This document shows, piece after piece, positions 1,586-11,758 of a stretch of DNA of 11,758 bases. The notes below the pieces were generated by a model, which did no database searches, was not told the DNA's origin, and worked only from the letters and a program-made list of their open reading frames with translations. How positions within the stretch are numbered: the stretch's first letter is position 1; each line of letters starts with the position of its first letter. The translations under genes and the position numbers were made by a program. The stretch comes from a virus (lineage: Duplodnaviria; Heunggongvirae; Uroviricota; Caudoviricetes), in IMG/VR virus record IMGVR_UViG_2690316233_000014; one strand, written 5' to 3'.

Positions 1586-2545
1586 TTACTCCTTGTCCAT
1601 TGCGTACAGCCCATTAACCAGAGCAAACTGTGGCACCCCGTACGCGATGAAAGTCGCATTAACTCCGCAGGCTTCGCGGATAGCGGGTGCCACAATCTCC
1701 GCCCCGCCACCGACAACCATCACCCGACCGTAACCCGAAAAACCCGCCAGCGCGCGGATCACGCGTTGTTTCAGTGTTTCTTCCTTTTCACGAATAACCG
1801 CCATCAGGCTGGCGTAATGCGCGTCATTGTGGATGTGCTGGCGCAGCCAGGCTTCATCATGGCGATGTTCGATAATGGTATTGGCGATGTGGTGACTGGT
1901 GCGCATACCGTTAGTGGCCATCACCGACAGTACGGCATCGGCCATCAGAGAAACGCCTACGTGTGGATCGCAAAACACCTGGCTGATACCTGCCAGTTGC
2001 CCCTGAACCTTTGCCACATCCAGCGTGGTTCCGCCCAAATCCACAATCAGCAGGGATTCAAACGGACTCATGTCAGCCAGTGCCTTAAAGCCAGCCGGAA
2101 TGGATTCAGGCATAACCCGCACGTTACGGATAGTGAATGCTTCGCCGTTCTGGTACTCCACCGGGCGCATGACGTTCGCTTTTTTGCGGTTGATGTTGGC
2201 CATGTCCGGCTGTGCGTTTGTGTCGAAATACTCGCTCAGTGGCAGGGTGACAACCACATCCACCTCCTGTGGCGTGATGCCTGATTTGACCAGCGCGTGA
2301 TGAATGGCAATGACATTCACATCGCTGTACTGGTATTGCGTGTCGGTCGTCTGGACAAAGCGATCGCTGACCGGATCAAAACCATAGCGCACGCCATCAA
2401 GCATGTAGTTCGCGGGCTGCGTGCCACCGAACGGCGCAGACCATTCCGACTTGAAGCTGTTCGGGCTGATGGCGTTGCGGCGTTCGCCGTTCTCAGTCCA
2501 TGCCAGCTTGATGTTGGTGGAGCCGTCGTCGATACAAATTTTCAT
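1586..2545 (-). CDS. parM: ParM/StbA actin-like segregation ATPase, 319 aa
   Basis: ATG at 2545-2543 with AAGGA upstream, TAA at 1586-1588. N-terminus MKICIDDGSTNIKLAW (actin-fold phosphate-1 motif) plus SPNSF, YQYSDVNV, IHHAL, VMPESIPAG, IVDLGGTTLD and VVGGGAE blocks match plasmid R1 ParM closely as I recall it. Confidence 0.9.
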   Translation of the reverse strand: MKICIDDGSTNIKLAWTENGERRNAISPNSFKSEWSAPFGGTQPANYMLDGVRYGFDPVSDRFVQTTDTQYQYSDVNVIAIHHALVKSGITPQEVDVVVTLPLSEYFDTNAQPDMANINRKKANVMRPVEYQNGEAFTIRNVRVMPESIPAGFKALADMSPFESLLIVDLGGTTLDVAKVQGQLAGISQVFCDPHVGVSLMADAVLSVMATNGMRTSHHIANTIIEHRHDEAWLRQHIHNDAHYASLMAVIREKEETLKQRVIRALAGFSGYGRVMVVGGGAEIVAPAIREACGVNATFIAYGVPQFALVNGLYAMDKE

Positions 2546-2621: not shown

Positions 2622-5462
2622 TCATATATCGCTGCGCGTTTTTTGGTCATTTACGGGATTCGTGAGTCCCGTTTCTGTCTGTTTTTTGTTTCCGCTGGTC
2701 AGGCCACCCCGCAGCAGGTCTGCTTTGCGGCTGGCGCGTTCAGTGGTTTCACTGATTCTCTGTGCGTGCTCTGCGTCGCGGATGGCGCGCAGCATGTCAG
2801 AAAGCACGGTAACGGGTGTTTTCATGGTGTTCTGGTCCTGCTGAAGTGTGGATGCCAGGCGTGCGGCGGCTTCAGGGTCTGATGCCCCCAGCTGTGCCAG
2901 ATAGCTGGCGACCGGGTTATGGCGGATCTCCGTGCTGCTTACGCCATGATTACGGCTCAGGCGCTGCCAGAGCTGCGTGATTCGGCTGTCCGGGCGGGTA
3001 TCCGGTTTGCGTACAATTTCAAATCCCTGCGGTGCAATGATGCTGCCGTCAACGTACAGACTGCCGCCCCGTAACAGGTGCTGCATCTGTTGTTCACCGA
3101 TATGCAGGCCGAGAGATTCAGCAGACTCCCGCCATTCTTTAGCGAGTAATTCGTGGTTATCAGGCAAAGGCCGCTGCTGTTTGCGGCTCTGTGTCCAGCT
3201 CTGCATTTCATCACTGCTGTTTTTTGCCTGTTTGTCACGAAGCGAATGCATCAGCGCCCGGCGTTCGTGCCGTTTCAGTGAGCGCATCCATTCGTTCACT
3301 TCAACGCCGTCAGGGAGCTGCGGCCACGGTGCTGGCCGTTCTTCCGGCTGTTCTGTCCCGTTGTTGTCCGTTTCCTGTACACGGGGACAGTTATTGCCAC
3401 GAGTCCAAGGGGCGGCAGGGCCGCCCTGAAGGTCAAAACCATTTTCGCGGGCACTGTCTTCCGCTTCCGGTTTGCGTCTTACCAGCTTCCAGTTATCCGG
3501 ATGCGTGCACACACGGGAGGATTCCCCGATGAGTGGTGACCAGATCCCGTAAATCTGTACGCTCTGTTCGCCGTAATCGTTCAGCTCATCGGCGAGGTCG
3601 TAGGCGGTGCGAATCAGGTAGTCCTTGCGTGGAACAAGTACGCCGCCCTGTTTCTCTATGTAGGTGGCAAAACATCCGGCATCAGCGGCGGCAAGAACCG
3701 CATCCATTGCGTCATCCTTCAGCCGTTGCGGGCCTTCCGGGTTGCGTGCCATCTGGCTGGCAAGGCGGCGCAGTTCACGCCATACCTGGCGGGAGGGGAT
3801 GCCAAAGAACTGGAACTGGCGGACCCGGTGAAGGCGCGCCCAGCCGATGGCGCGTTCCACGCTCTCGGCCATTGATTTTCCGGTTTCGTGGTCAACGCGT
3901 GGCTTGCCCGTTTTCGGGTCGATGCCATCCACGGCACGGCTGTCCAGGTTTTTCCCGATGTAGGTGGCGATGTAGCTGGTCGGTGTGCCTTTTGAGCCGT
4001 CGACGTACTCCGCCTTAAAGCGTGGGGTAATATCATCACCCAGCTCGTGACGATCTTCCTGAATGGCAATATCGCGGGTGTGGGACACAATAGTGTCGAT
4101 TTCTTCCGGATGAGCAAAGACCATCATATGCCAGTGCACGGTGCCGTCATGGTGAGGCTCCACCGTGCGGATGCCATACCAGCGCAGGCCGTCGCGGTTC
4201 AGTTTCTTGCGGACCGCCGCAAAAAACGTGTTAACCAGGTAATCGCTGGAGTCGCGCATGGTGGCCCCGTTCCATTTGGGATTCGGATGACCGTTCTCTG
4301 TTGTGGCGTGGTATTTTGACGGGCAGGTGACAGTCAGAAACACCGCTTTGTCGCCACGGGCTTCGGCCAGAAGTTCCAGCCCCTTCATGGTGGCCATCAT
4401 TTCTGCCTTACGGTGAACCGGGTTACTTACTCCCGCGTAATACACTGTCTCGAGATCAATCGTGAACCCATCTTCGTTTTCCAGCATGAAACTTTTCAGG
4501 AAATCGCGTGTTTTCTCGCGCTGTGCGCGAAACTCGCTTAATGCGTCCTGGCTCAGATAGGGCGATGTTTTTCTGGAAACCAGACAGGCGGCGCGGAGTT
4601 GTTCTTCTCTCCACTCGCAACGTAACAGCCACAGTTTGCGTTTCCACCATTCCGCACAGGTCAGGCGAAGGATTGCGCCCGGCAGCAGCTCCGTGTCCGG
4701 TTCGTTCCTCCGGTCTTTATCTGTTGTCAGTGCGTCATAATGTGGAGGCATGATGTGCAGGTGTAACGCCATGCGGGCCAGCATCTGATACGCCTTCAGC
4801 GTTACATCCATGGTCAGTTCGCCATCGGTCGCGCCAAAGCCATCGCAGAGTTTTTCGAAGGTGCTGCTGAACATCGCCGCCGTCATGGTGGCCAGCGTCT
4901 GTATCTGGTGTTTGTTGAGCTGCGGCAGGTAAAGCAAATCGTCCAGGCGTTCGCGTCCGGCAAGGGAGCGATAACCAGGTGTCAGCCAGCGCCCGTCAGT
5001 GCGATCCAGACGTTCGAATATTTTGCGCAGGGTTCCGCGTGTATAGCGTTCCGCCTGCCAGCTCTTTTTGCCTTTCTGACGATCGGCTTCCTGCTTCTTG
5101 CGCAGGAAAGAGAGGTGGCGGCTCAGAGGTTCTCGCAGATAAACGGGAAGCGCCTTCAGTGTGGCAAAGGCACGGGCTACCGGGTCTTGTTCTGTTGCCC
5201 GGCGCTTACTGATGATGCTCTGTGCCAGCTTTTCACGCTGTCCGGCTTCCTCAAGGGATGCCATGAGTTTTTTACCCATGGCGGATTGTGCGAAAAAGGC
5301 TTCTTCCTTCGCTTCCTGTTCTTCCTGTGCCCTTTTGTCCGCCTCAAGGTAGCAACGGATGGCGCGTTGCAGGTCGGTTTCAGTTTCCTGCCTGCGCTCC
5401 GTAAATCTGGCCGGATCAATAGCTGGTCGTGGTTCATTCCAGCTCCATGCAAACGCACTCAT
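2622..5462 (-). CDS. rolling-circle replication initiator, HUH endonuclease of the P2 gpA / phiX174 A type, about 946 aa
   Basis: HUH motif VHWHMMVF (codons near 4128-4136) and paired active-site tyrosines in SYIATYIGK (YxxxY, near 3960-3976). No Walker A motif, so not a P4 alpha primase-helicase. ATG at 5462-5460 forms an ATGA overlap with the upstream stop; the track start at 5489 is GTG. Confidence 0.85.
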   Translation of the reverse strand: MSAFAWSWNEPRPAIDPARFTERRQETETDLQRAIRCYLEADKRAQEEQEAKEEAFFAQSAMGKKLMASLEEAGQREKLAQSIISKRRATEQDPVARAFATLKALPVYLREPLSRHLSFLRKKQEADRQKGKKSWQAERYTRGTLRKIFERLDRTDGRWLTPGYRSLAGRERLDDLLYLPQLNKHQIQTLATMTAAMFSSTFEKLCDGFGATDGELTMDVTLKAYQMLARMALHLHIMPPHYDALTTDKDRRNEPDTELLPGAILRLTCAEWWKRKLWLLRCEWREEQLRAACLVSRKTSPYLSQDALSEFRAQREKTRDFLKSFMLENEDGFTIDLETVYYAGVSNPVHRKAEMMATMKGLELLAEARGDKAVFLTVTCPSKYHATTENGHPNPKWNGATMRDSSDYLVNTFFAAVRKKLNRDGLRWYGIRTVEPHHDGTVHWHMMVFAHPEEIDTIVSHTRDIAIQEDRHELGDDITPRFKAEYVDGSKGTPTSYIATYIGKNLDSRAVDGIDPKTGKPRVDHETGKSMAESVERAIGWARLHRVRQFQFFGIPSRQVWRELRRLASQMARNPEGPQRLKDDAMDAVLAAADAGCFATYIEKQGGVLVPRKDYLIRTAYDLADELNDYGEQSVQIYGIWSPLIGESSRVCTHPDNWKLVRRKPEAEDSARENGFDLQGGPAAPWTRGNNCPRVQETDNNGTEQPEERPAPWPQLPDGVEVNEWMRSLKRHERRALMHSLRDKQAKNSSDEMQSWTQSRKQQRPLPDNHELLAKEWRESAESLGLHIGEQQMQHLLRGGSLYVDGSIIAPQGFEIVRKPDTRPDSRITQLWQRLSRNHGVSSTEIRHNPVASYLAQLGASDPEAAARLASTLQQDQNTMKTPVTVLSDMLRAIRDAEHAQRISETTERASRKADLLRGGLTSGNKKQTETGLTNPVNDQKTRSDI
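2651..2688 (+). repeat. hairpin repeat copy 2: TTTACGGGATT-CGTG-AGTCCCGT followed by a T-rich tail
   Basis: About 35 of 42 positions identical to copy 1 and 73 bp away. Stem ACGGGATT/AGTCCCGT with one G-U pair. Lies inside the last ~20 codons of the Rep ORF. Confidence 0.5.
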
Positions 5463-5920: not shown

Positions 5921-6151
5921 TTAATGGAGTTTGTTTTGCTGCTGGATGAGCTGTTGAAGCTCGTGCAGATCATCCGCCAGATAGCTGAAAACAGAGGCGG
6001 AATAAATGTTTGATAGTGCGTGGCTGCGCTCATGCAGCATATTGATGTGCATGATTTGCGCGACGCGTGATGCGCGGGAAAGTCTGCGGTTGATTTCAGT
6101 CTGGATGTGACGACGCTCCGCGATAGCGCGGTGCTGTTTGCGGTCTGCCAT
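5921..6151 (-). CDS. small basic helical protein, 76 aa
   Basis: ATG at 6151-6149 with AGAGG 8 nt upstream, TAA at 5921-5923. Translation MADRKQHRAIAERRHIQTEINRRLSR... is protein-like; preferred over the overlapping Ser/Arg-rich 205-aa track ORF. Confidence 0.55.
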   Translation of the reverse strand: MADRKQHRAIAERRHIQTEINRRLSRASRVAQIMHINMLHERSHALSNIYSASVFSYLADDLHELQQLIQQQNKLH

Positions 6152-6194: not shown

Positions 6195-6386
6195 GAGTTG
6201 AGAATCTCGGGGTGGCGAGACGTACAGGGTTCTCAACACCGGAGAGCAAAGAATCCGGCCCGACCGAAGTCGGCCCCGTACGCCCCGCCATAATTCTGAC
6301 GCGAAAAAGACGTGGCAATACAGTACGCACAAAAAAACCGCTTGCGCGGTTATGCGCTTTGCTCTGTATCGGGTTGAGAATCCCGG
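6195..6386 (-). ncRNA. candidate cis-regulatory or small-RNA leader with three related boxes
   Basis: On the + strand, box A GAGTTGAGAATCTCGG (6195-6210) and box C GGGTTGAGAATCCCGG (6371-6386) are 14/16 identical. Box B AGGGTTCTCAACACCGG (6226-6242) is complementary to both over 10-12 bp. A GGCCGAC-UUCG-GUCGGCC hairpin (6257-6276, - strand RNA) and a terminator lie between them. No ORF with a plausible RBS. Confidence 0.4.
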
Positions 6387-6455
6387 CACCCGTTTTATGA
6401 GGTGCAGCGGAAATGTAACCTGACCGATTGAGGCATGGCAAGCGGTTTTTTTGTG
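6328..6455. repeat. perfect 18-bp inverted repeat CACAAAAAAACCGCTTGC / GCAAGCGGTTTTTTTGTG flanking a 92-bp segment
   Basis: Left arm 6328-6345 and right arm 6438-6455 are exact reverse complements. The left arm is half of the - strand terminator; the right arm with CCGATTG...CAAGCGG plus a T7 run resembles a weaker + strand terminator. Confidence 0.55.
6330..6352 (-). terminator. intrinsic terminator or attenuator inside the leader
   Basis: On the - strand: AACCGC-GCAA-GCGGTT followed by seven U residues (GNRA-type tetraloop). Located upstream of the 76-aa, 129-aa and Rep genes. Confidence 0.45.
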
Positions 6456-8140: not shown

Positions 8141-8419
8141 TTAATCTGCTTTCTGAATTTCAGCTTCTGAATCCATACAAATAATTTCGATATAGGGTTC
8201 ATCGCCATTAACCTGACGTGCCTTTTCAGCTTCGCTAATGATTTCTCGTACGGTCTGGTACGGAAGCTCCACAGTCAGGCGCGTACCGTTCAGATAAACG
8301 TAAGTAGCTGCGTTTTTTTCGGATGGAACAACTCCGTCAATTGCTGATGCGCGTAATAACAGTTCACCGCGAAAATCAATAAAACGGATAAATACACCTT
8401 GTGCATGCTCTTTGGTCAT
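8141..8419 (-). CDS. hypothetical protein, 92 aa
   Basis: Internal ATG at 8419-8417 preferred: it lies 10 nt after the upstream stop with AGGTG in between, whereas the track start at 8479 is TTG and overlaps the upstream gene by 50 nt. Confidence 0.55.
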   Translation of the reverse strand: MTKEHAQGVFIRFIDFRGELLLRASAIDGVVPSEKNAATYVYLNGTRLTVELPYQTVREIISEAEKARQVNGDEPYIEIICMDSEAEIQKAD

Positions 8420-8429
8420 AAAGCACCTG

Positions 8430-8780
8430 TTATAAATCAGCCTGTTTAATAAAACTTTGCCCGCGAAGCAGACGATCAACCGTGCGAAGTGCTTCGTATA
8501 ATGTGAAATCCTGCCCGAAGTGATTGTCGCCGCAGTTCAATGCAAAAATGCGGTTTCCGGTAAATGGATTGCGTGGGCATTTGTGGACCACGATTCCAGC
8601 TTTCTCAATCAGCCAGGCATGCTCGCCGATTTGTTTTACAGCGTGGCCATCCGGTGTTGCGTGCGTCTCGTTCAGGTTATAGCGACTGTTACTACGTGAT
8701 GCACTGGTAGCGACGTGGTGTACATGGCGTTCTACGCCATTACGAAATTTGGAGTATGGATTATTAGCGTTTTTTTTCAT
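8430..8780 (-). CDS. hypothetical protein, 116 aa
   Basis: ATG at 8780-8778, TAA at 8430-8432. Verified codon by codon against the track translation. Family not recognised. Confidence 0.6.
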   Translation of the reverse strand: MKKNANNPYSKFRNGVERHVHHVATSASRSNSRYNLNETHATPDGHAVKQIGEHAWLIEKAGIVVHKCPRNPFTGNRIFALNCGDNHFGQDFTLYEALRTVDRLLRGQSFIKQADL

Positions 8781-8801
8781 GATGGTGCTCTGTTCATTGT
8801 T

Positions 8802-9005
8802 TTAGCTGTTAGCCAAAGCGTCTTTTAACATCGCCACAAGGTTTACTTCAGGCTTTTCCATTTTGGCGCGTTTGGGGCGGATAATAATTCGACCGTCAGC
8901 CAACATCTTTTTGCATGTATTAAGAGGGATACCTGTTATCTCTGCATATTTCTGCAGGGATACATAGGGGGCATTCACATTGATATTGATGGTTATACCT
9001 GACAT
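8802..9005 (-). CDS. Cox/Apl-like small HTH protein (candidate excisionase / lytic-side regulator), 67 aa
   Basis: Strong AGGAGG 8 nt upstream of the ATG at 9005-9003. The segment PYVSLQKYAEITGIPLNTCKKMLADGRI follows the pattern of P2 Cox (IPYQEFAKLIGKSTGAVRRMIDKGKLPVI, as I recall it), and its position in the operon divergent from the repressor agrees. Confidence 0.6.
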   Translation of the reverse strand: MSGITININVNAPYVSLQKYAEITGIPLNTCKKMLADGRIIIRPKRAKMEKPEVNLVAMLKDALANS

Positions 9006-9021
9006 CCCACTAGCCTCCTGA

Positions 9022-9228
9022 TCAGGAAGATTTGTTTTGTTCTTTCTGGGTTAGCTCTAGGCCGCGAAGGAAGATCATGCGCGCCATGTTAGAGGATGAG
9101 CGTTGTTCTTTAGCTGCCATTTCATCAATGACGGCTCGCTCCTCGAGGGACAGCCGAAGTGCCAGTCTTGGACCTGTGGCGGTGTTACGCGGAATGCGTG
9201 ATCTGGTATCGTGAAGAACTTGTTTCAT
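9022..9228 (-). CDS. ribbon-helix-helix (Arc/CopG-type) DNA-binding protein, 68 aa
   Basis: RLALRLSLEERAVIDEMAAKEQRSSSNMARMIFLRGLE fits the beta-strand, helix, helix RHH pattern. It is the first gene of the leftward operon; no Shine-Dalgarno before the ATG at 9228, so the mRNA may be leaderless. Confidence 0.6.
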   Translation of the reverse strand: MKQVLHDTRSRIPRNTATGPRLALRLSLEERAVIDEMAAKEQRSSSNMARMIFLRGLELTQKEQNKSS

Positions 9229-9303
9229 AGTGGTATATTGTGATCATCTAATAGCTCGTGAAATCATTTTGGTATCAAAAAAGATACCTGTCAAGGTTTT
9301 TGT
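9229..9303. promoter_or_regulatory. divergent promoter and operator region between the RHH operon and the XRE repressor
   Basis: 75-bp AT-rich gap with an inverted repeat GGTATC-AAAAAA-GATACC (9271-9288), a further TGGTAT half-site at 9231-9236 and a TGATCA palindrome at 9241-9246. Candidate -35/-10 hexamers on both strands are not resolved. Confidence 0.5.
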
Positions 9304-9708
9304 ATGAAAAATGATATTGGTCAGCGGTTGCGTGAGGAAAGGGAAAGATTGGGACTTAGTCAAGTTGCCATGAGCGACATTGGTGGAGTCAAAAAGCTAA
9401 CTCAGCTTAGATATGAGAAAGGAGATAGCTTTCCTGATGCTGCGTATTTGGCAGCGCTGTCTCGTTTTGGCCTTGATGTTCAGTATGTTGTGTTGGGAAT
9501 TCACTCACCTGAAACTTATAACGATGATGAGCAGGAGTTGATTACTCGCTTTCGAGCAGCTTCGTTAGATGTGAAAAACGCGGTGATTGGGGCTTTAAAA
9601 GGTGCGATCAGTGAAAAGGAAACTCAGCCATCAGGACGTGAGTTAAATATTTCTGGTGGTAATAACCGTATCGCTGGTCGTGACTATAACGAAACTAAGG
9701 GTAGGTGA
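9304..9708 (+). CDS. XRE-family HTH repressor (CI/C-like), 134 aa
   Basis: ATG at 9304 with AAGG upstream. N-terminus IGQRLREERERLGLSQVAMSDIGGV is a classic Cro/CI-type HTH. Ends with three tandem in-frame stops TGA TAG TAG (9706-9714). Confidence 0.8.
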   Translation: MKNDIGQRLREERERLGLSQVAMSDIGGVKKLTQLRYEKGDSFPDAAYLAALSRFGLDVQYVVLGIHSPETYNDDEQELITRFRAASLDVKNAVIGALKGAISEKETQPSGRELNISGGNNRIAGRDYNETKGR

Positions 9709-9723
9709 TAGTAGGGAGGTGAC

Positions 9724-10374
9724 ATGGCCGTCAACTCAAACGGTTCAAACAATCGCGTTGCTGGGCGTGATTTTCACGAAAAGAATATTCAGATAGAGCG
9801 ATATGATGGTTCTCATACCGTCAATATCGCAATCCCTTCGAATAATGATGATGACGATCGCCCTTTGCTTAAGGCTCAGCGTAAGGAGCTAAATAGCTTG
9901 GTTGCTGCTATTGCAGAAGCTAGCAATACTGAAGCGTTTATTATTTGGCAAAAAGTACATGCGGAGATTGGTGTAGCTGGTATTGATGATATGACAGTAA
10001 ATCAATATAAAACAGCGGAGAGTTTTCTGCATGCAATGCTTGAGCGATGTAAAGATCATGATGCCTGTAAGGCTCTTGTAAGTTTATTACTACGTAACAG
10101 TGAAGACTGTGGACTTCGACAAAAACTTCTGCGGTATTGCCATATCAATTTCGGTACAGGACGTTTAAACGATCTTACTCGTTCTCAGTTACAGTCTGCA
10201 TTGTCGTGGTTAGAGCAACAATCGGCATCAAGCCACACAGAGAGTTCGACCTTACCAGAAGTCCGACTTCGTGCTTCAGAATTAATCCGACTTTATCCAA
10301 AAGAAATAATATTCTTTATCTGCGTAGGGGTTTTGGTAGGCGGTGTCATTTCTAGGGCGTTTTTTAATTTGTAA
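9724..10374 (+). CDS. tail-anchored membrane protein of unknown function, 216 aa
   Basis: Strong GGGAGGTGA Shine-Dalgarno before the ATG at 9724. C-terminal hydrophobic stretch EIIFFICVGVLVGGVISRAFF. The N-terminal motif SNNRVAGRDFHE echoes GNNRIAGRDYNE at the repressor C-terminus. AT-rich. Confidence 0.65.
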   Translation: MAVNSNGSNNRVAGRDFHEKNIQIERYDGSHTVNIAIPSNNDDDDRPLLKAQRKELNSLVAAIAEASNTEAFIIWQKVHAEIGVAGIDDMTVNQYKTAESFLHAMLERCKDHDACKALVSLLLRNSEDCGLRQKLLRYCHINFGTGRLNDLTRSQLQSALSWLEQQSASSHTESSTLPEVRLRASELIRLYPKEIIFFICVGVLVGGVISRAFFNL

Positions 10375-10403
10375 TCTTACTTGAGCTAAATTGAGGTAAT
10401 GAT

Positions 10404-10751
10404 ATGAAAGTAAAAAATGTTCAACTATTAGTTACTTTTTTATCTATGTTTTCTTTTTCCGCCGTCGCAATGCCTTTTAAAACTATTGAACGTGAGAGTT
10501 TTAATGGGGTATGGCCATTTAATACTGATGAGGTTCAATTACAGTGTCTTGATGGTAATCCTTATGTGATGAATTTTGACGATAATAAGTTATATGCACT
10601 TACAGGTTTGGCTCGAATAAAAGGTAAAACATTTGGTGCGTTACCGTTAGATAACAATAATCCATTTTGGCTAGATAATGATGCCGCCCCAGGGTTAAAA
10701 AAGAGTCTGGGGGATGTCACTAAGGCTGCATTTGATTTATGTGATAAGTAA
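10404..10751 (+). CDS. secreted or periplasmic protein with an N-terminal signal peptide, 115 aa
   Basis: GAGGT 7 nt before the ATG at 10404. MKVKNVQLLVTFLSMFSFSAVA looks like a Sec signal peptide; the mature part has two Cys residues. AT-rich. Confidence 0.65.
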   Translation: MKVKNVQLLVTFLSMFSFSAVAMPFKTIERESFNGVWPFNTDEVQLQCLDGNPYVMNFDDNKLYALTGLARIKGKTFGALPLDNNNPFWLDNDAAPGLKKSLGDVTKAAFDLCDK

Positions 10752-10756
10752 CTAAA

Positions 10757-11758
10757 ATGTCGGTTCGTAAGATTCCATCAGGTAAATGGCTTTGCGAATG
10801 TTATCCCTACGGGGCATCGGGAAAACGCATTCGTAAACAGTTTGCGACAAAAAGTGAGGCGCTCTCTTATGAGCGCCGTTTAATGAATAGTAGAGTTGGA
10901 GACGAGTTTCAAGATGGTTCTGGTCCTCGTCTTTCTGAGTTGATTGCTCGTTGGTTTGAGATGTACGGTAAAACCTTGTCCTCTGGTGCAGAGCGCAAAG
11001 TCAAACTTGAGGCGATTTGTTCCAGGCTGGGAGATCCATTTGCTTCTCAGTTTGACAAAAATATGTTTGCTACTTATCGGGAAAGAAGGCTATCAGGAGA
11101 ATGGAATCCCAAGGGGAAGAAAAAACTTAGTGAAGCAACCGTTAATCGCGAGCAGTCATATCTACATGCTGTTTTTGCCGAACTGAAGCGCCTTGGGGAG
11201 TGGTCTGGTGAAAACCCCCTGACTGGTATTCGCAAGTTTCGTGAGGAAGAAAAGGAACTGGCGTTTCTGTATGTAGATGAGATTGAACGCCTTCTGATTG
11301 CGTGTGATGAGTCACGGAATAAAGATTTGGGGGTTGTTGTCCGTATTGGGCTTGCGACGGGTGCTCGGTGGAGTGAAGCAGAAGGATTAAAGCAATCTCA
11401 AGTACTGCCCGGTCGAATCACATTTGTTAAAACTAAAGGAAAGAAGAACCGCACTGTACCGATTTCACCTCAATTGCAGGCTATGCTTCCTAAAAAACGA
11501 GGAGCGCTATTTTCACCATGTTATGAGGCTTTTGACGCTGCAATTAAGAGAGCGAAGATCGAGCTTCCTGATGGGCAATTAACTCATGTGCTACGTCACA
11601 CGTTTGCCAGTCATTTTATGATGCGGGGCGGAAATATTCTTGTGTTGCAAAAAATACTGGGGCATAGCGATATAAAAATGACTATGCGTTATGCGCATTT
11701 TGCTCCAGGTCATTTAGAGGCTGCTGTTGAATTGAACCCTTTTGACAATAGAGGGTAA
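10757..11758 (+). CDS. int: tyrosine recombinase / phage integrase, P2 Int-like, 333 aa
   Basis: Catalytic signature TGARWSEA ... HVLRHTFASHFM ... GHSDIKMTMRYAHF (Arg, His-x-x-Arg, Tyr). Length and blocks such as ITFVKTKGKKNRTVPIS and LQKILGH parallel P2 integrase as I recall it. Complete; stop at 11756-11758. Confidence 0.9.
   Translation: MSVRKIPSGKWLCECYPYGASGKRIRKQFATKSEALSYERRLMNSRVGDEFQDGSGPRLSELIARWFEMYGKTLSSGAERKVKLEAICSRLGDPFASQFDKNMFATYRERRLSGEWNPKGKKKLSEATVNREQSYLHAVFAELKRLGEWSGENPLTGIRKFREEEKELAFLYVDEIERLLIACDESRNKDLGVVVRIGLATGARWSEAEGLKQSQVLPGRITFVKTKGKKNRTVPISPQLQAMLPKKRGALFSPCYEAFDAAIKRAKIELPDGQLTHVLRHTFASHFMMRGGNILVLQKILGHSDIKMTMRYAHFAPGHLEAAVELNPFDNRG

What the first reader, a model, noticed from the sequence alone, without database searches (positions are those of the whole stretch)
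8802..9303. Three-component switch: RHH gene precedes the Cox-like gene on the lytic side
P2 and 186 have a single Cox/Apl gene first in the early operon. Here a ribbon-helix-helix protein with an apparently leaderless start comes first, then a Cox-like HTH. The operator region has a GGTATC-A6-GATACC inverted repeat plus an additional half-site. This may be a variant immunity switch or an inserted regulator.
Basis: partly seen in the sequence, partly recalled or inferred. Interest (0 to 1): 0.35.

Follow-up and report, generated by a model that had tools for sequence, protein, structure and literature searches.

The report
RHH-first lysis-lysogeny switch, P2-like prophage
In this P2-like E. 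coli prophage, the first gene switched on for lytic growth encodes a small ribbon-helix-helix DNA-binding protein, followed by the usual Cox-like excisionase; this layout is a conserved but unstudied switch variant found in many bacteria.

Summary
On the minus strand a 68-aa ribbon-helix-helix (RHH) gene (9022-9228) lies between the early promoter and a 67-aa Cox-like gene (8802-9005). An exact GGTATC-A6-GATACC inverted repeat (9271-9288) fills the spacer of the only strong promoter found.

The window is a P88-like (Xuanwuvirus) prophage next to yecA, found in 524 of 5426 complete E. coli genomes. It is 96% identical to phage 520873, whose record already names the two genes "Arc-like repressor" and "Cox-like excisionase and repressor".

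The RHH gene is real. Relatives at 33-57% identity exist, the predicted fold is RHH, and the order repressor / RHH / Cox-like recurs in every Enterobacterales locus examined. In Burkholderia and Ralstonia P2-like phages the same RHH family is again the first lytic-side gene, but no Cox-like gene follows. The RHH therefore looks like an original partner of this repressor type, not an insert.

Its function is inferred, not shown. I think it most likely represses the repressor's own promoter (Cro-like), leaving the Cox-like protein mainly as excisionase.

- "Leaderless" is unproven: there is no Shine-Dalgarno sequence, but the predicted promoter gives a leader of about 31 nt.
- The "extra half-site" belongs to a near-invariant 24-nt block, not to the repressor's operator set.

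Verdict: a new variant of a known kind, of moderate interest.

The parts
9022..9228 (-). RHH gene (68 aa), first gene of the early (lytic) operon. It has a conserved N-terminal arm (H-x-x-RSR-I/L-P-R/K), a beta-strand (LALRLS) and two helices.
   Evidence: PHROG 3431, E=9.8e-29. Relatives at 33-57% identity. A family profile hits HP0222 (E=7e-4) and Arc (E=0.014) in the PDB. 11 of 14 relatives hit Pfam RHH_5. AlphaFold2 pLDDT 80 with helices 28-40 and 45-67, and the best Foldseek hits are almost all RHH proteins. Codon-position identity 63/73/38%.
8802..9005 (-). Cox-like winged-helix gene (67 aa), second gene of the early operon; the probable excisionase.
   Evidence: PHROG 575, E=1.2e-27. 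45-47% identical to the annotated cox genes of HP2/S2, K139 and Yersinia phage vB_YenM_31.17. 60-66% identical across enterobacterial genera. AlphaFold2 pLDDT 65; best Foldseek hits are Pukovnik Xis 4j2n (ranks 1-2), P2 Cox 4lhf (rank 4) and RdfS (rank 48). No Pfam hit.
9014..9019 (-). Shine-Dalgarno sequence AGGAGG of the Cox-like gene, in the 16-nt gap after the RHH stop codon.
   Evidence: Read from the sequence. Anti-SD duplex -10.3 kcal/mol, against +0.6 for the RHH start.
9229..9252 (-). Near-invariant 24-nt block (CTATTAGATGATCACAATATACCACT here) that abuts the RHH ATG. It lacks an SD. On the plus strand it carries TGGTATATT (9231-9239), the inferred extended -10 of the repressor promoter Pc. 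It is the candidate binding site for the RHH and/or the Cox-like protein.
   Evidence: Mean pairwise identity 84% over 12 Enterobacterales loci (11 distinct taxa plus a second E. coli variant), against 38% at RHH third codon positions and 30-60% in the rest of the intergenic region. A TATA(C/T)C core sits at the same distance from the ATG in Burkholderia and Ralstonia phages. The RNA is unstructured.
9266..9294 (-). Early promoter Pe: -35 TTGACA (9294-9289), 17-nt spacer, -10 CAAAAT (9271-9266). The predicted transcription start is near 9259.
   Evidence: The only promoter-like site found in 8700-9800. The -35 TTGAC(A/T) is conserved at the same distance from the RHH ATG in all loci.
9271..9288 (.). 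Operator O1: the exact inverted repeat GGTATC-A6-GATACC inside the Pe spacer. Inferred site of the HTH repressor.
   Evidence: Different inverted repeats occupy the same position in loci with different repressors, for example L009 GATCTATAGATC, Salmonella TATTTGCAGA-TT-TCTGCAAATA and Yersinia AGGAAC-AATAC-TTCCT.
9301..9318 (.). Operator O2: an imperfect copy of O1 (13 of 18 positions), 30 bp away, overlapping the repressor start codon.
   Evidence: The same two-site layout, 32 bp apart, occurs in the Salmonella and Yersinia operator types. Also flagged as inverted repeat I1.
9304..9708 (+). Immunity repressor (134 aa): XRE-type HTH, no peptidase domain, C-terminal tail ...NNRIAGRDYNE.
   Evidence: Pfam HTH_31 / HTH_3 below their cut-offs; NCBIfam RstR / DicA-like. 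Homologous repressors lie divergent from the RHH gene in all related loci.
9724..10374 (+). Flk_N-like, C-terminally membrane-anchored protein (216 aa), co-transcribed with the repressor. Its N-terminus repeats the repressor's tail motif.
   Evidence: PHROG 5825, E=4e-103; NCBIfam Flk, E=8.6e-16. Motif sharing and co-occurrence across loci.

Best explanation
This is the lysis-lysogeny switch of a P88-like (Peduoviridae) prophage. It carries an immunity module unlike that of P2 or 186.

Lysogenic side (plus strand): an XRE-type HTH repressor, a Flk_N-like membrane protein, a DUF2511 protein and the integrase.

Lytic side (minus strand): the early promoter Pe has the repressor's palindromic operator O1 inside its spacer, with a weaker copy O2 30 bp upstream. 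Pe transcribes first a 68-aa RHH protein, then a 67-aa Cox-like winged-helix protein, then the replication genes.

Shown here:
- Both small genes are real and conserved.
- The RHH gene is the constant first lytic-side gene of this module.

Inferred:
- The RHH dimer is the Cro/Cox-type counter-repressor. It would bind the near-invariant 24-nt block that abuts its own start codon and carries the -10 of the repressor promoter Pc. That would shut off repressor synthesis and probably also dampen Pe.
- The Cox-like protein serves mainly as the excision directionality factor, perhaps also assisting at Pc.
- RHH translation does not use a Shine-Dalgarno sequence. It starts either from an unstructured leader of about 31 nt or, less likely, from a leaderless transcript made by a weak second promoter.
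For: Gene reality:
- HMMER finds relatives at 33-57% identity, 64-81 aa long, with the same N-terminal arm and a beta-alpha-alpha pattern.
- Codon positions 1/2/3 are 63/73/38% identical across genera.
- The antisense ORF that RefSeq annotates instead loses its Met or gains stop codons in Yersinia, Photorhabdus, K. oxytoca and phiE202.

Fold:
- The family profile hits HP0222 and Arc in the PDB.
- The AlphaFold2 model has pLDDT 93-97 over the two helices, and the best Foldseek hits are almost all RHH proteins.

Position in the operon:
- Pe lies upstream.
- The gap to the Cox-like gene is 16 nt here and overlaps by 4 nt in Salmonella. The gap is 9-16 nt in the other enterobacterial loci, except K. 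oxytoca, where an 80-aa ORF is inserted.

Conservation of the layout:
- HTH repressor / RHH / Cox-like recurs in Salmonella, Photorhabdus, Serratia and K. oxytoca, and in Hafnia, Buttiauxella, five Yersinia species, Mixta and a Serratia MAG. A short 'Candidatus Erwinia dacicola' contig shows only RHH followed by Cox-like.
- Burkholderia phiE202 and phiBP82.2 and Ralstonia RsoM1USA have a homologous repressor with its membrane protein, divergent from the same RHH family, but no annotated Cox-like gene. In RsoM1USA the repressor is IS-disrupted.

The operator belongs to the repressor:
- The inverted repeat in the Pe spacer changes with the repressor type, while the RHH gene and the block stay the same (L009).

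Candidate RHH target:
- The block is 84% identical across genera and overlaps TGGTATATT.
- The outward-facing beta-strand residues R25 and S/T27 are conserved where the block is conserved. They differ in the Burkholderia/Ralstonia group, whose block also differs.

The Cox-like gene combines with other modules:
- The same Cox subfamily is the first early gene, next to unrelated long CI repressors, in HP2, K139 and Yersinia phage vB_YenM_31.17, and by ORF position in Klebsiella phage 4LV2017, where it is unannotated.
Against: - No binding, transcription or genetic data exist for any of the three proteins.
- Pc is inferred by eye from a conserved extended -10. The promoter scan did not report it.
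- The block's conservation could be due to the Pc core promoter alone, or to the equally conserved Cox-like protein.
- The block has no clear dyad symmetry of the kind many RHH operators show.
- No sequence motif is shared between the block and the att region, so the excisionase role is unsupported by sites.
- The window protein itself scores below the Pfam RHH cut-offs (13.5 bits against 20.5).
Confidence: 0.5

Rival explanations
1. The Cox-like protein keeps both classical Cox roles (Pc repressor and excisionase), as in P2 and HP1. The RHH is an auxiliary autoregulator of the early operon: an Arc-style negative feedback on Pe, or a modulator of Cox dosage.
For: The Cox-like protein is the most conserved of the three (60-66% across genera). 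Its putative recognition helix (T30, C31, M34) is invariant, which matches an invariant DNA block. In HP2, K139 and Yersinia vB_YenM_31.17 the same Cox subfamily is the first early gene with no RHH gene beside it. The block lies downstream of the Pe start, where a bound protein would also act as a roadblock.
Against: Burkholderia and Ralstonia phages have the repressor, the RHH gene and the same promoter geometry, but no annotated Cox-like gene. In those phages the RHH cannot be a mere accessory to Cox.
Confidence: 0.25
2. The RHH and the Cox-like protein act together as a two-protein excision and regulation complex. Neither is sufficient alone.
For: The two genes are adjacent in every Enterobacterales locus examined except K. 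oxytoca, where an 80-aa ORF lies between them. The gap is 9-16 nt elsewhere, and stop and start overlap in Salmonella, which suggests translational coupling.
Against: Each family occurs without the other: the RHH alone in Burkholderia and Ralstonia phages, and Cox-like alone in HP2 and K139. No interaction data exist.
Confidence: 0.12
3. The RHH gene is an inserted accessory gene (a moron or orphan antitoxin-like regulator) unrelated to the switch.
For: The strongest structural hits are RHH antitoxins (TacA, CopA, AtaR). There is a weak NCBIfam RelB hit (E=0.044). P88 itself lacks this gene.
Against: No toxin gene is adjacent. The position, directly between the operator/promoter and the early genes, is fixed across genera and across two proteobacterial classes, and it co-occurs with one repressor family.
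Confidence: 0.05
4. The RHH ORF is not a gene. The real gene is the 45-aa plus-strand ORF (9077-9214) that RefSeq PGAP annotates in E. coli genomes.
For: PGAP calls the antisense ORF and not the RHH in the three RefSeq E. coli genomes whose annotation was read, and the hit tables of the rest list the same product pattern. Third codon positions coincide in the two frames, so both stay open in close relatives.
Against: The antisense frame lacks a Met start in Yersinia, Photorhabdus and K. oxytoca and has internal stops in phiE202. Position 2 is more conserved than position 1 only in the RHH frame. The RHH frame gives a confident RHH fold and distant homologues.
Confidence: 0.03

Closest known systems
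Phage P2 switch (C repressor, face-to-face Pe/Pc promoters, multifunctional Cox) and its close form in phage P88
   Same: Same virus family and same overall layout: int and repressor on one strand, the early operon leading to the gene A replication protein on the other, with opposed promoters in a short intergenic region. In P88 the downstream early genes (DUF4761, DUF4754, GPA) are homologous to those in the window.
   Different: P2 and P88 have a roughly 99-aa C repressor that binds direct repeats, and Cox (Pfam Phage_Cox) is the first early gene. Here the repressor is an unrelated 134-aa XRE-type protein with a palindromic operator. The first early gene encodes an RHH protein, and the Cox-like protein does not match Pfam Phage_Cox.
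Cox genes of Haemophilus phages HP2/S2, Vibrio phage K139 and Yersinia phage vB_YenM_31.17 (PHROG 575)
   Same: The window's 67-aa protein is 45-47% identical to these and of the same size and family. The pL/PL promoters annotated in HP2 and K139 lie at or just upstream of the start of the first early gene, much like the inferred Pc here.
   Different: In those phages cox is the first early gene, the repressor is a long CI-type protein, and a CII-like gene follows in K139 and the Yersinia phage. Here an RHH gene precedes cox and there is no CII-like gene.
'Arc-like repressor' genes of Burkholderia phages phiE202, phi52237 and phiBP82.2 and Ralstonia phage RsoM1USA (PHROG 3431)
   Same: Same RHH family. 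It is again the first gene opposite a homologous XRE repressor and membrane protein, with the same promoter geometry: TTGACA, an inverted repeat in the spacer, and a leftward -10 (TATACT) abutting an RHH start that lacks an SD. Deleting the repressor-side genes of phiBP82.2 makes the phage lytic (PMC13026187).
   Different: No Cox-like gene follows the RHH gene there. Identity to the window's RHH was not measured directly; tblastn with two relatives gave 31-32% (Salmonella P0013) and 46-49% (Serratia P0036). The RHH itself was not studied in that paper and is not annotated in the RefSeq phiBP82.2 record.
P22 Arc (immI region), lambda Cro and 186 Apl as functional analogues
   Same: Small dimeric DNA-binding proteins made from the lytic transcript that turn down an opposing or their own promoter. 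Arc shares the RHH fold and an N-terminal arm.
   Different: Arc controls the antirepressor promoter Pant, not the main switch. Cro and Apl are helix-turn-helix proteins. Sequence similarity to Arc is marginal (profile E=0.014; Pfam Arc matched by 1 of 14 relatives at E=0.065).

Membership tests
Ribbon-helix-helix (Arc/MetJ/CopG) superfamily | Beta-strand followed by two helices, about 45 residues | tested here: met
   AlphaFold2 model: an extended segment, then helices 28-40 and 45-67, with pLDDT 93-97 over residues 31-60. Most of the best Foldseek PDB hits are RHH proteins (TacA, PutA, CopA, AtaR, Arc, ParG, CopG, AmrZ), with target-normalised TM-scores up to 0.78.
Ribbon-helix-helix (Arc/MetJ/CopG) superfamily | Sequence match to curated RHH models | tested here: inconclusive
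   The window protein scores 13.5 bits on RHH_1 (cut-off 20.5) and 13.2 on RHH_5 (cut-off 26). Among relatives, 11 of 14 match RHH_5 (best E=2.5e-6). The family profile hits HP0222 (E=7e-4) and Arc (E=0.014).
Ribbon-helix-helix (Arc/MetJ/CopG) superfamily | Dimer that inserts a two-stranded sheet into the major groove of a repeated DNA site | not testable with these tools
   Needs biochemistry. No clear dyad was found in the conserved block.
PHROG 3431 'Arc-like repressor' | Full-length profile match | tested here: met
   E=9.8e-29, residues 1-68 on profile positions 1-67 of 67.
P2 Cox family (Pfam Phage_Cox, PDB 4lhf) | Sequence match to Pfam Phage_Cox | tested here: not met
   No Pfam family at E<=0.1. 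No PDB sequence match.
P2 Cox family (Pfam Phage_Cox, PDB 4lhf) | Winged-helix fold of the Xis/Cox type | tested here: inconclusive
   The model is of only moderate confidence (pLDDT 65). Its elements are strand, two helices, two short strands and a C-terminal helix. Foldseek hits: Pukovnik Xis (prob 1.00, target-normalised TM 0.74), P2 Cox 4lhf (prob 0.96, query-normalised TM 0.56), RdfS.
P2 Cox family (Pfam Phage_Cox, PDB 4lhf) | First gene of the early operon; represses Pc and directs excision | tested here: not met
   It is the second gene, after the RHH gene. Its functions cannot be tested here.
PHROG 575 / HP2-K139 type Cox | Profile match and homology to annotated cox genes | tested here: met
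   E=1.2e-27. tblastn: 45-47% identity to the HP2, K139 and Yersinia cox genes.
P2-type transcriptional switch | Opposed (face-to-face) early and repressor promoters between the two operons | tested here: inconclusive
   Pe was found by the scan. Pc is inferred from a conserved extended -10, TGGTATATT, at 9231-9239, and the scan did not report it. There is no transcript mapping.
Type II toxin-antitoxin RHH antitoxin | Adjacent cognate toxin gene in the same operon | tested here: not met
   The neighbours are the promoter region and the Cox-like gene. No toxin family was detected.

The most novel reading that the evidence does not exclude
A distinct and widespread class of Peduoviridae immunity module exists with these features:
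- An RHH protein translated without a Shine-Dalgarno sequence (possibly from a leaderless transcript) has taken over the counter-repressor role that Cox, Apl or Cro play elsewhere. It acts on an almost invariant site fused to its own start codon.
- The XRE repressor is coupled, through a shared NR(I/V)AGRD(Y/F)NE peptide, to a membrane-anchored Flk_N-like partner that senses or sequesters it.
- The Cox-like protein is reduced to an excisionase.
Probability: 0.3. Interest if true: 0.6.

Novelty: new variant of a known kind. Interest (0 to 1): 0.45.

Why it matters
P2, 186 and HP1 are the textbook models for simple phage switches with opposed promoters. In all of them one protein (Cox or Apl) both counters the repressor and directs excision.

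This module appears to split or re-assign those jobs between an RHH protein and a Cox-like protein, and it uses a different repressor. It is not rare. It sits in about a tenth of complete E. coli genomes, including many O157:H7 strains, and in prophages of Salmonella, Yersinia, Serratia and Klebsiella. Without the Cox-like gene, it also occurs in Burkholderia and Ralstonia phages that are being engineered for therapy.

The RHH gene is missing from the RefSeq E. coli genome annotations inspected here, which call a probably spurious antisense ORF instead. It was also overlooked in the one experimental study of a related switch. Recognising it would improve prophage annotation and guide the construction of strictly lytic derivatives.

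Tried and rejected
A narrower alignment gave 10 loci.
- Single-sequence searches of the PDB with the RHH and Cox-like proteins gave nothing meaningful; the only hits were lectins at E~0.6.
- I looked for motifs shared between the conserved block and the att region, as P2 has cox boxes at both Pc and attP. Shared 7- and 8-mers were close to shuffle expectation, so the excisionase role gains no support from sites.
- I looked for dyad symmetry or clear repeats in the block. There are only weak 10-bp-spaced A(T/C)CAC repeats, and the TCACG further downstream is explained by Ser-Arg codons and is absent in Yersinia. Not convincing.
- The position-3 conservation test cannot separate the RHH frame from the antisense ORF, because the wobble positions coincide. 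It was replaced by the position 1 versus 2 ranking and by loss of the start codon or gain of stops in distant relatives.
- Five literature searches (CP-933T and cox; P88 and P2-like immunity; Xuanwuvirus; P2-like and RHH; Milagro) found no description of this RHH gene.
- Rfam found no known RNA in the switch region.
Full report
WHAT THE WINDOW IS

The 11.8-kb window is the left end of a P2-like prophage of the P88 group (Peduoviridae, genus Xuanwuvirus).
- The switch region 8325-10800 is 96% identical to Escherichia phage 520873 (NC_049344).
- The 550 bases around the finding occur, mostly at 99% identity or better, in 524 of 5426 complete E. coli genomes. Many are O157:H7 strains. In the four RefSeq E. 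coli loci inspected, the prophage lies next to yecA.
- The minus strand carries the early operon, ending in a 955-aa gene-A replication protein and ParM.
- The plus strand carries, in order, a 134-aa XRE-type HTH protein (9304-9708), a 216-aa Flk_N-like membrane protein (9724-10374), a DUF2511 protein and the integrase.

CHECKING THE OBSERVATION

The gene order is as described. A 68-aa ORF (9022-9228, minus strand) is followed after 16 nt by a 67-aa ORF (8802-9005, minus strand) that has a strong AGGAGG ribosome-binding site.
- The first ORF matches PHROG 3431 'Arc-like repressor' over its full length (E=9.8e-29).
- The second matches PHROG 575 'Cox-like excisionase and repressor' (E=1.2e-27).
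- The RefSeq record of phage 520873 already uses these two names.

The inverted repeat GGTATC-A6-GATACC is exact and unique, at 9271-9288.
- The only sigma-70-like promoter found in 8700-9800 is on the minus strand: TTGACA (9294-9289), a 17-nt spacer, CAAAAT (9271-9266), 10 of 12 matches.
- The repeat fills that spacer exactly.

IS THE RHH ORF A GENE?

This needed testing. RefSeq's PGAP annotation of E. coli genomes does not call it and instead calls a 45-aa ORF on the opposite strand (9077-9214). The two frames share wobble positions, so both stay open in close relatives. Four lines of evidence favour the RHH frame.
1. An exhaustive HMMER search finds relatives at 33-57% identity and similar length. 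They share the arm H-x-x-RSR-L/I-P-K/R-G, a hydrophobic-alternating strand and two helices. Some are tandem fusions of two such domains.
2. Across 12 enterobacterial loci, codon positions 1/2/3 are 63/73/38% identical. This is the normal ranking in the RHH frame and an abnormal one in the antisense frame.
3. The antisense ORF has no Met start in Yersinia, Photorhabdus and K. oxytoca, and has internal stops in Burkholderia phage phiE202.
4. The family profile hits HP0222 (E=7e-4) and Arc (E=0.014) in the PDB, and 11 of 14 relatives hit Pfam RHH_5. The AlphaFold2 model (pLDDT 80; 93-97 over the helices) retrieves mostly RHH proteins by Foldseek.

The window protein itself stays below the Pfam cut-offs. 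The fold assignment therefore rests on the family and on the model.

THE COX-LIKE PROTEIN

- It has no Pfam hit, so it is not a member of Pfam Phage_Cox.
- It is 45-47% identical to the annotated cox genes of Haemophilus phages HP2/S2, Vibrio phage K139 and Yersinia phage vB_YenM_31.17.
- A moderate-confidence model (pLDDT 65) resembles mycobacteriophage Pukovnik Xis, P2 Cox (4lhf) and the RdfS excisionase.
- In HP2, K139 and the Yersinia phage, and in P88 with its true Phage_Cox protein, cox is the first early gene. In Klebsiella phage 4LV2017 the unannotated match is in the same position.

HOW CONSERVED IS THE ARRANGEMENT?

Enterobacterales:
- The order HTH repressor / RHH / Cox-like is present in divergent E. 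coli variants and in Salmonella, Photorhabdus, Serratia and Klebsiella oxytoca. K. oxytoca has an 80-aa ORF inserted between the RHH and Cox-like genes.
- It is also present in nine of ten further species loci: Hafnia, Buttiauxella, five Yersinia species, Mixta and a Serratia MAG. The tenth, a 1-kb 'Candidatus Erwinia dacicola' contig, shows only RHH followed by Cox-like.
- Across these loci the RHH is 42-57% identical to the window's and the Cox-like protein 51-66%.

Beyond Enterobacterales:
- The same RHH family is the first gene opposite a homologous XRE repressor and membrane protein in the P2-like Burkholderia phages phiE202 and phiBP82.2, and opposite an IS-disrupted copy in Ralstonia phage RsoM1USA. 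tblastn also finds it in phi52237 and phiX216.
- In the three loci inspected, no annotated Cox-like gene follows.
- An earlier comparative study had noted that no C, cox or apl equivalents could be identified in these Burkholderia and Ralstonia phages (PMC3448106).

The RHH is thus the constant lytic-side partner of this repressor type. The Cox-like gene combines with several repressor types. This argues against 'inserted regulator'.

THE CONTROL REGION (sequences aligned on the RHH start codon)

1. A -35 TTGAC(A/T) lies at a fixed distance from the ATG. A locus-specific inverted repeat occupies the spacer.
   - E. coli variant L009 has a repressor only 31% identical and a different repeat (GATCTATAGATC), but the same RHH gene.
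   - Salmonella, Yersinia, Hafnia and others each have their own repeat.
   - In the E. coli, Salmonella and Yersinia types, a second imperfect copy lies 30-32 bp upstream. In the window it is at 9301-9318, over the repressor's start codon.
   - These repeats are therefore the repressor's operators.

2. The 24 nt directly before the RHH ATG (9229-9252) are almost invariant.
   - Mean pairwise identity is 84%, against 38% at RHH third codon positions and 30-60% in the rest of the intergenic region.
   - On the plus strand the block reads TGGTATATT. This is an extended -10 aimed at the repressor gene, whose -35 would lie in the first RHH codons.
   - Burkholderia and Ralstonia phages have TATACT at exactly the same distance from their RHH ATG.
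   - I take this to be Pc. It would face Pe, with the two start points only about 13 nt apart, as in P2-type switches. This is inference: the scan did not report it and there is no transcript mapping.

3. Both persist in loci whose operators are unrelated, so they are not evidence for a third repressor site.

LEADERLESS OR NOT?

- No locus has a Shine-Dalgarno sequence before the RHH start. The anti-SD duplex is +0.6 kcal/mol in the window, and the few pairings of -5 to -6 kcal/mol elsewhere lie too far upstream. Most of the Cox-like genes do have one, at -5 to -11 kcal/mol.
- The initiation region is less structured than 196 of 200 shuffles, and the second codon is usually AAA (9 of the 12 enterobacterial loci).
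- From Pe, the leader would be about 31 nt.
- A leaderless transcript is not excluded. CAATAT occupies exactly -12 to -7 relative to the A of the ATG, and a conserved T(T/G)(C/T)ACA element lies 16 nt upstream of it. However, these hexamers are weak, and the first overlaps the Pc -10 on the other strand, which alone could explain its conservation.

MOST LIKELY MECHANISM

In the lysogen, the XRE repressor bound at O1 and O2 blocks Pe. When Pe fires, the first product is the RHH.

I propose that the RHH binds the invariant block over Pc, stopping repressor synthesis and probably damping Pe. This is the role of Cro, or of Cox and Apl at Pc/pL. The Cox-like protein would act mainly as excisionase.

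In favour:
- The RHH is constant across the module's whole range, including phages without an adjacent Cox-like gene.
- The block is fused to its start codon.
- The outward-facing strand residues (R25, S/T27) are conserved where the block is conserved, and changed in the Burkholderia and Ralstonia proteins, whose block differs.

Against:
- There are no functional data.
- The block has no obvious dyad.
- The equally conserved Cox-like protein could be what binds the block.
- No shared sites link the block to the att region.

I give this reading about 0.5. The main rival is that the Cox-like protein keeps both Cox roles and the RHH is an Arc-like autoregulator (about 0.25). A joint RHH/Cox complex gets about 0.12. 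An unrelated insert or a non-gene get 0.05 or less each.

COMPARISON WITH WHAT IS KNOWN, AND NOVELTY

The parts belong to known kinds: an RHH repressor, a Cox/Xis-type winged helix, an XRE repressor and opposed promoters. Public phage records already carry the PHROG-derived names.

I found no paper that describes or tests an RHH protein in a P2-like switch. The one experimental study of a related module (phiBP82.2, PMC13026187) deleted the repressor-side genes and does not mention the RHH in the sections I read. The RefSeq record of that phage annotates a long antisense ORF over the RHH gene.

I therefore class this as a new variant of a known kind. It is of moderate interest, raised somewhat by its breadth and by the side observations listed under things noticed in passing.

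Noticed in passing
window 9304-9708 and 9724-10374 (+); also L011, L018, L023, L026, L030, L031, L035, L036: The repressor's C-terminal tail (...SGGNNRIAGRDYNETKGR) is repeated at the N-terminus of the next gene, the Flk_N-like membrane-anchored protein (MAVNSNGSNNRVAGRDFHEKN...). Nine locus types have both the tail and the Flk_N gene. Six have neither (Photorhabdus, four Yersinia species, a Serratia MAG). One (L009) has the tail only. A weaker version occurs in Burkholderia phiE202 and Ralstonia RsoM1USA. This suggests either a direct repressor-membrane protein link or a split ancestral fusion protein.
   Followed up: partly
window 9229-9252: The 24-nt block abutting the RHH start codon is far more conserved across enterobacterial genera (84% pairwise identity) than the flanking coding sequence at silent sites (38%). 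Its core, GATCACAATATA, includes a GATC site. Whether this reflects the Pc core promoter, a protein binding site or a translation signal is unresolved.
   Followed up: partly
window 9077-9214 (+): RefSeq PGAP annotates a 45-aa 'hypothetical protein' antisense to the RHH gene in E. coli genomes and omits the RHH gene. Comparative evidence indicates the antisense call is spurious.
   Followed up: yes
window 6208-6295 (-), 6331-6405 (-), 5921-6151 (-): Rfam finds a C4 antisense RNA (78.5 bits) and an isrK sRNA (63.1 bits) just upstream of a gene of the Pfam 'Derepression protein family' (PF25738). This looks like an RNA-controlled antirepressor-like module inside the early operon. It may be how this repressor, which has no peptidase domain, is inactivated.
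   Followed up: no
L009:1288-1790 compared with window 9229-9330: A heteroimmune E. coli variant has a repressor only 31% identical and a different operator, but the same RHH gene, Cox-like gene and 24-nt block. The recombination junction lies inside the intergenic region, between the Pe -10 and the block.
   Followed up: partly
L018:3135-3915 (Salmonella): Two tandem paralogous repressor genes (126 and 125 aa), both with the NRVAG(R/G)DY tail, lie between the switch and the Flk_N-like gene.
   Followed up: no
L029 (phiBP82.2, NC_070912) 2671-3450: The RefSeq record annotates a 259-aa 'gp38' ORF that overlaps both the repressor gene's 5' end and, in antisense, the unannotated RHH gene. Deletions named after this numbering may remove the RHH gene and the promoters.
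   Followed up: no
proteins P0016, P0021, P0026: Some distant relatives (120-153 aa) are tandem fusions of two RHH domains of this family, that is, possible single-chain dimers.
   Followed up: no
window 1586-2545 (-) and L001:236-547: This P2-like prophage carries a plasmid-type ParM segregation gene, and in phage 520873 also a partition protein gene, directly after the gene-A replication gene.
   Followed up: no
L028:1640-3349 (Ralstonia phage RsoM1USA): The repressor homologue is annotated only as a misc_feature ('similar to XRE family transcriptional regulator'), and two IS2-type transposase genes sit between it and the switch region. This may explain that phage's behaviour. Two further small RHH-like ORFs (gp39, gp40) follow the RHH gene.
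   Followed up: no
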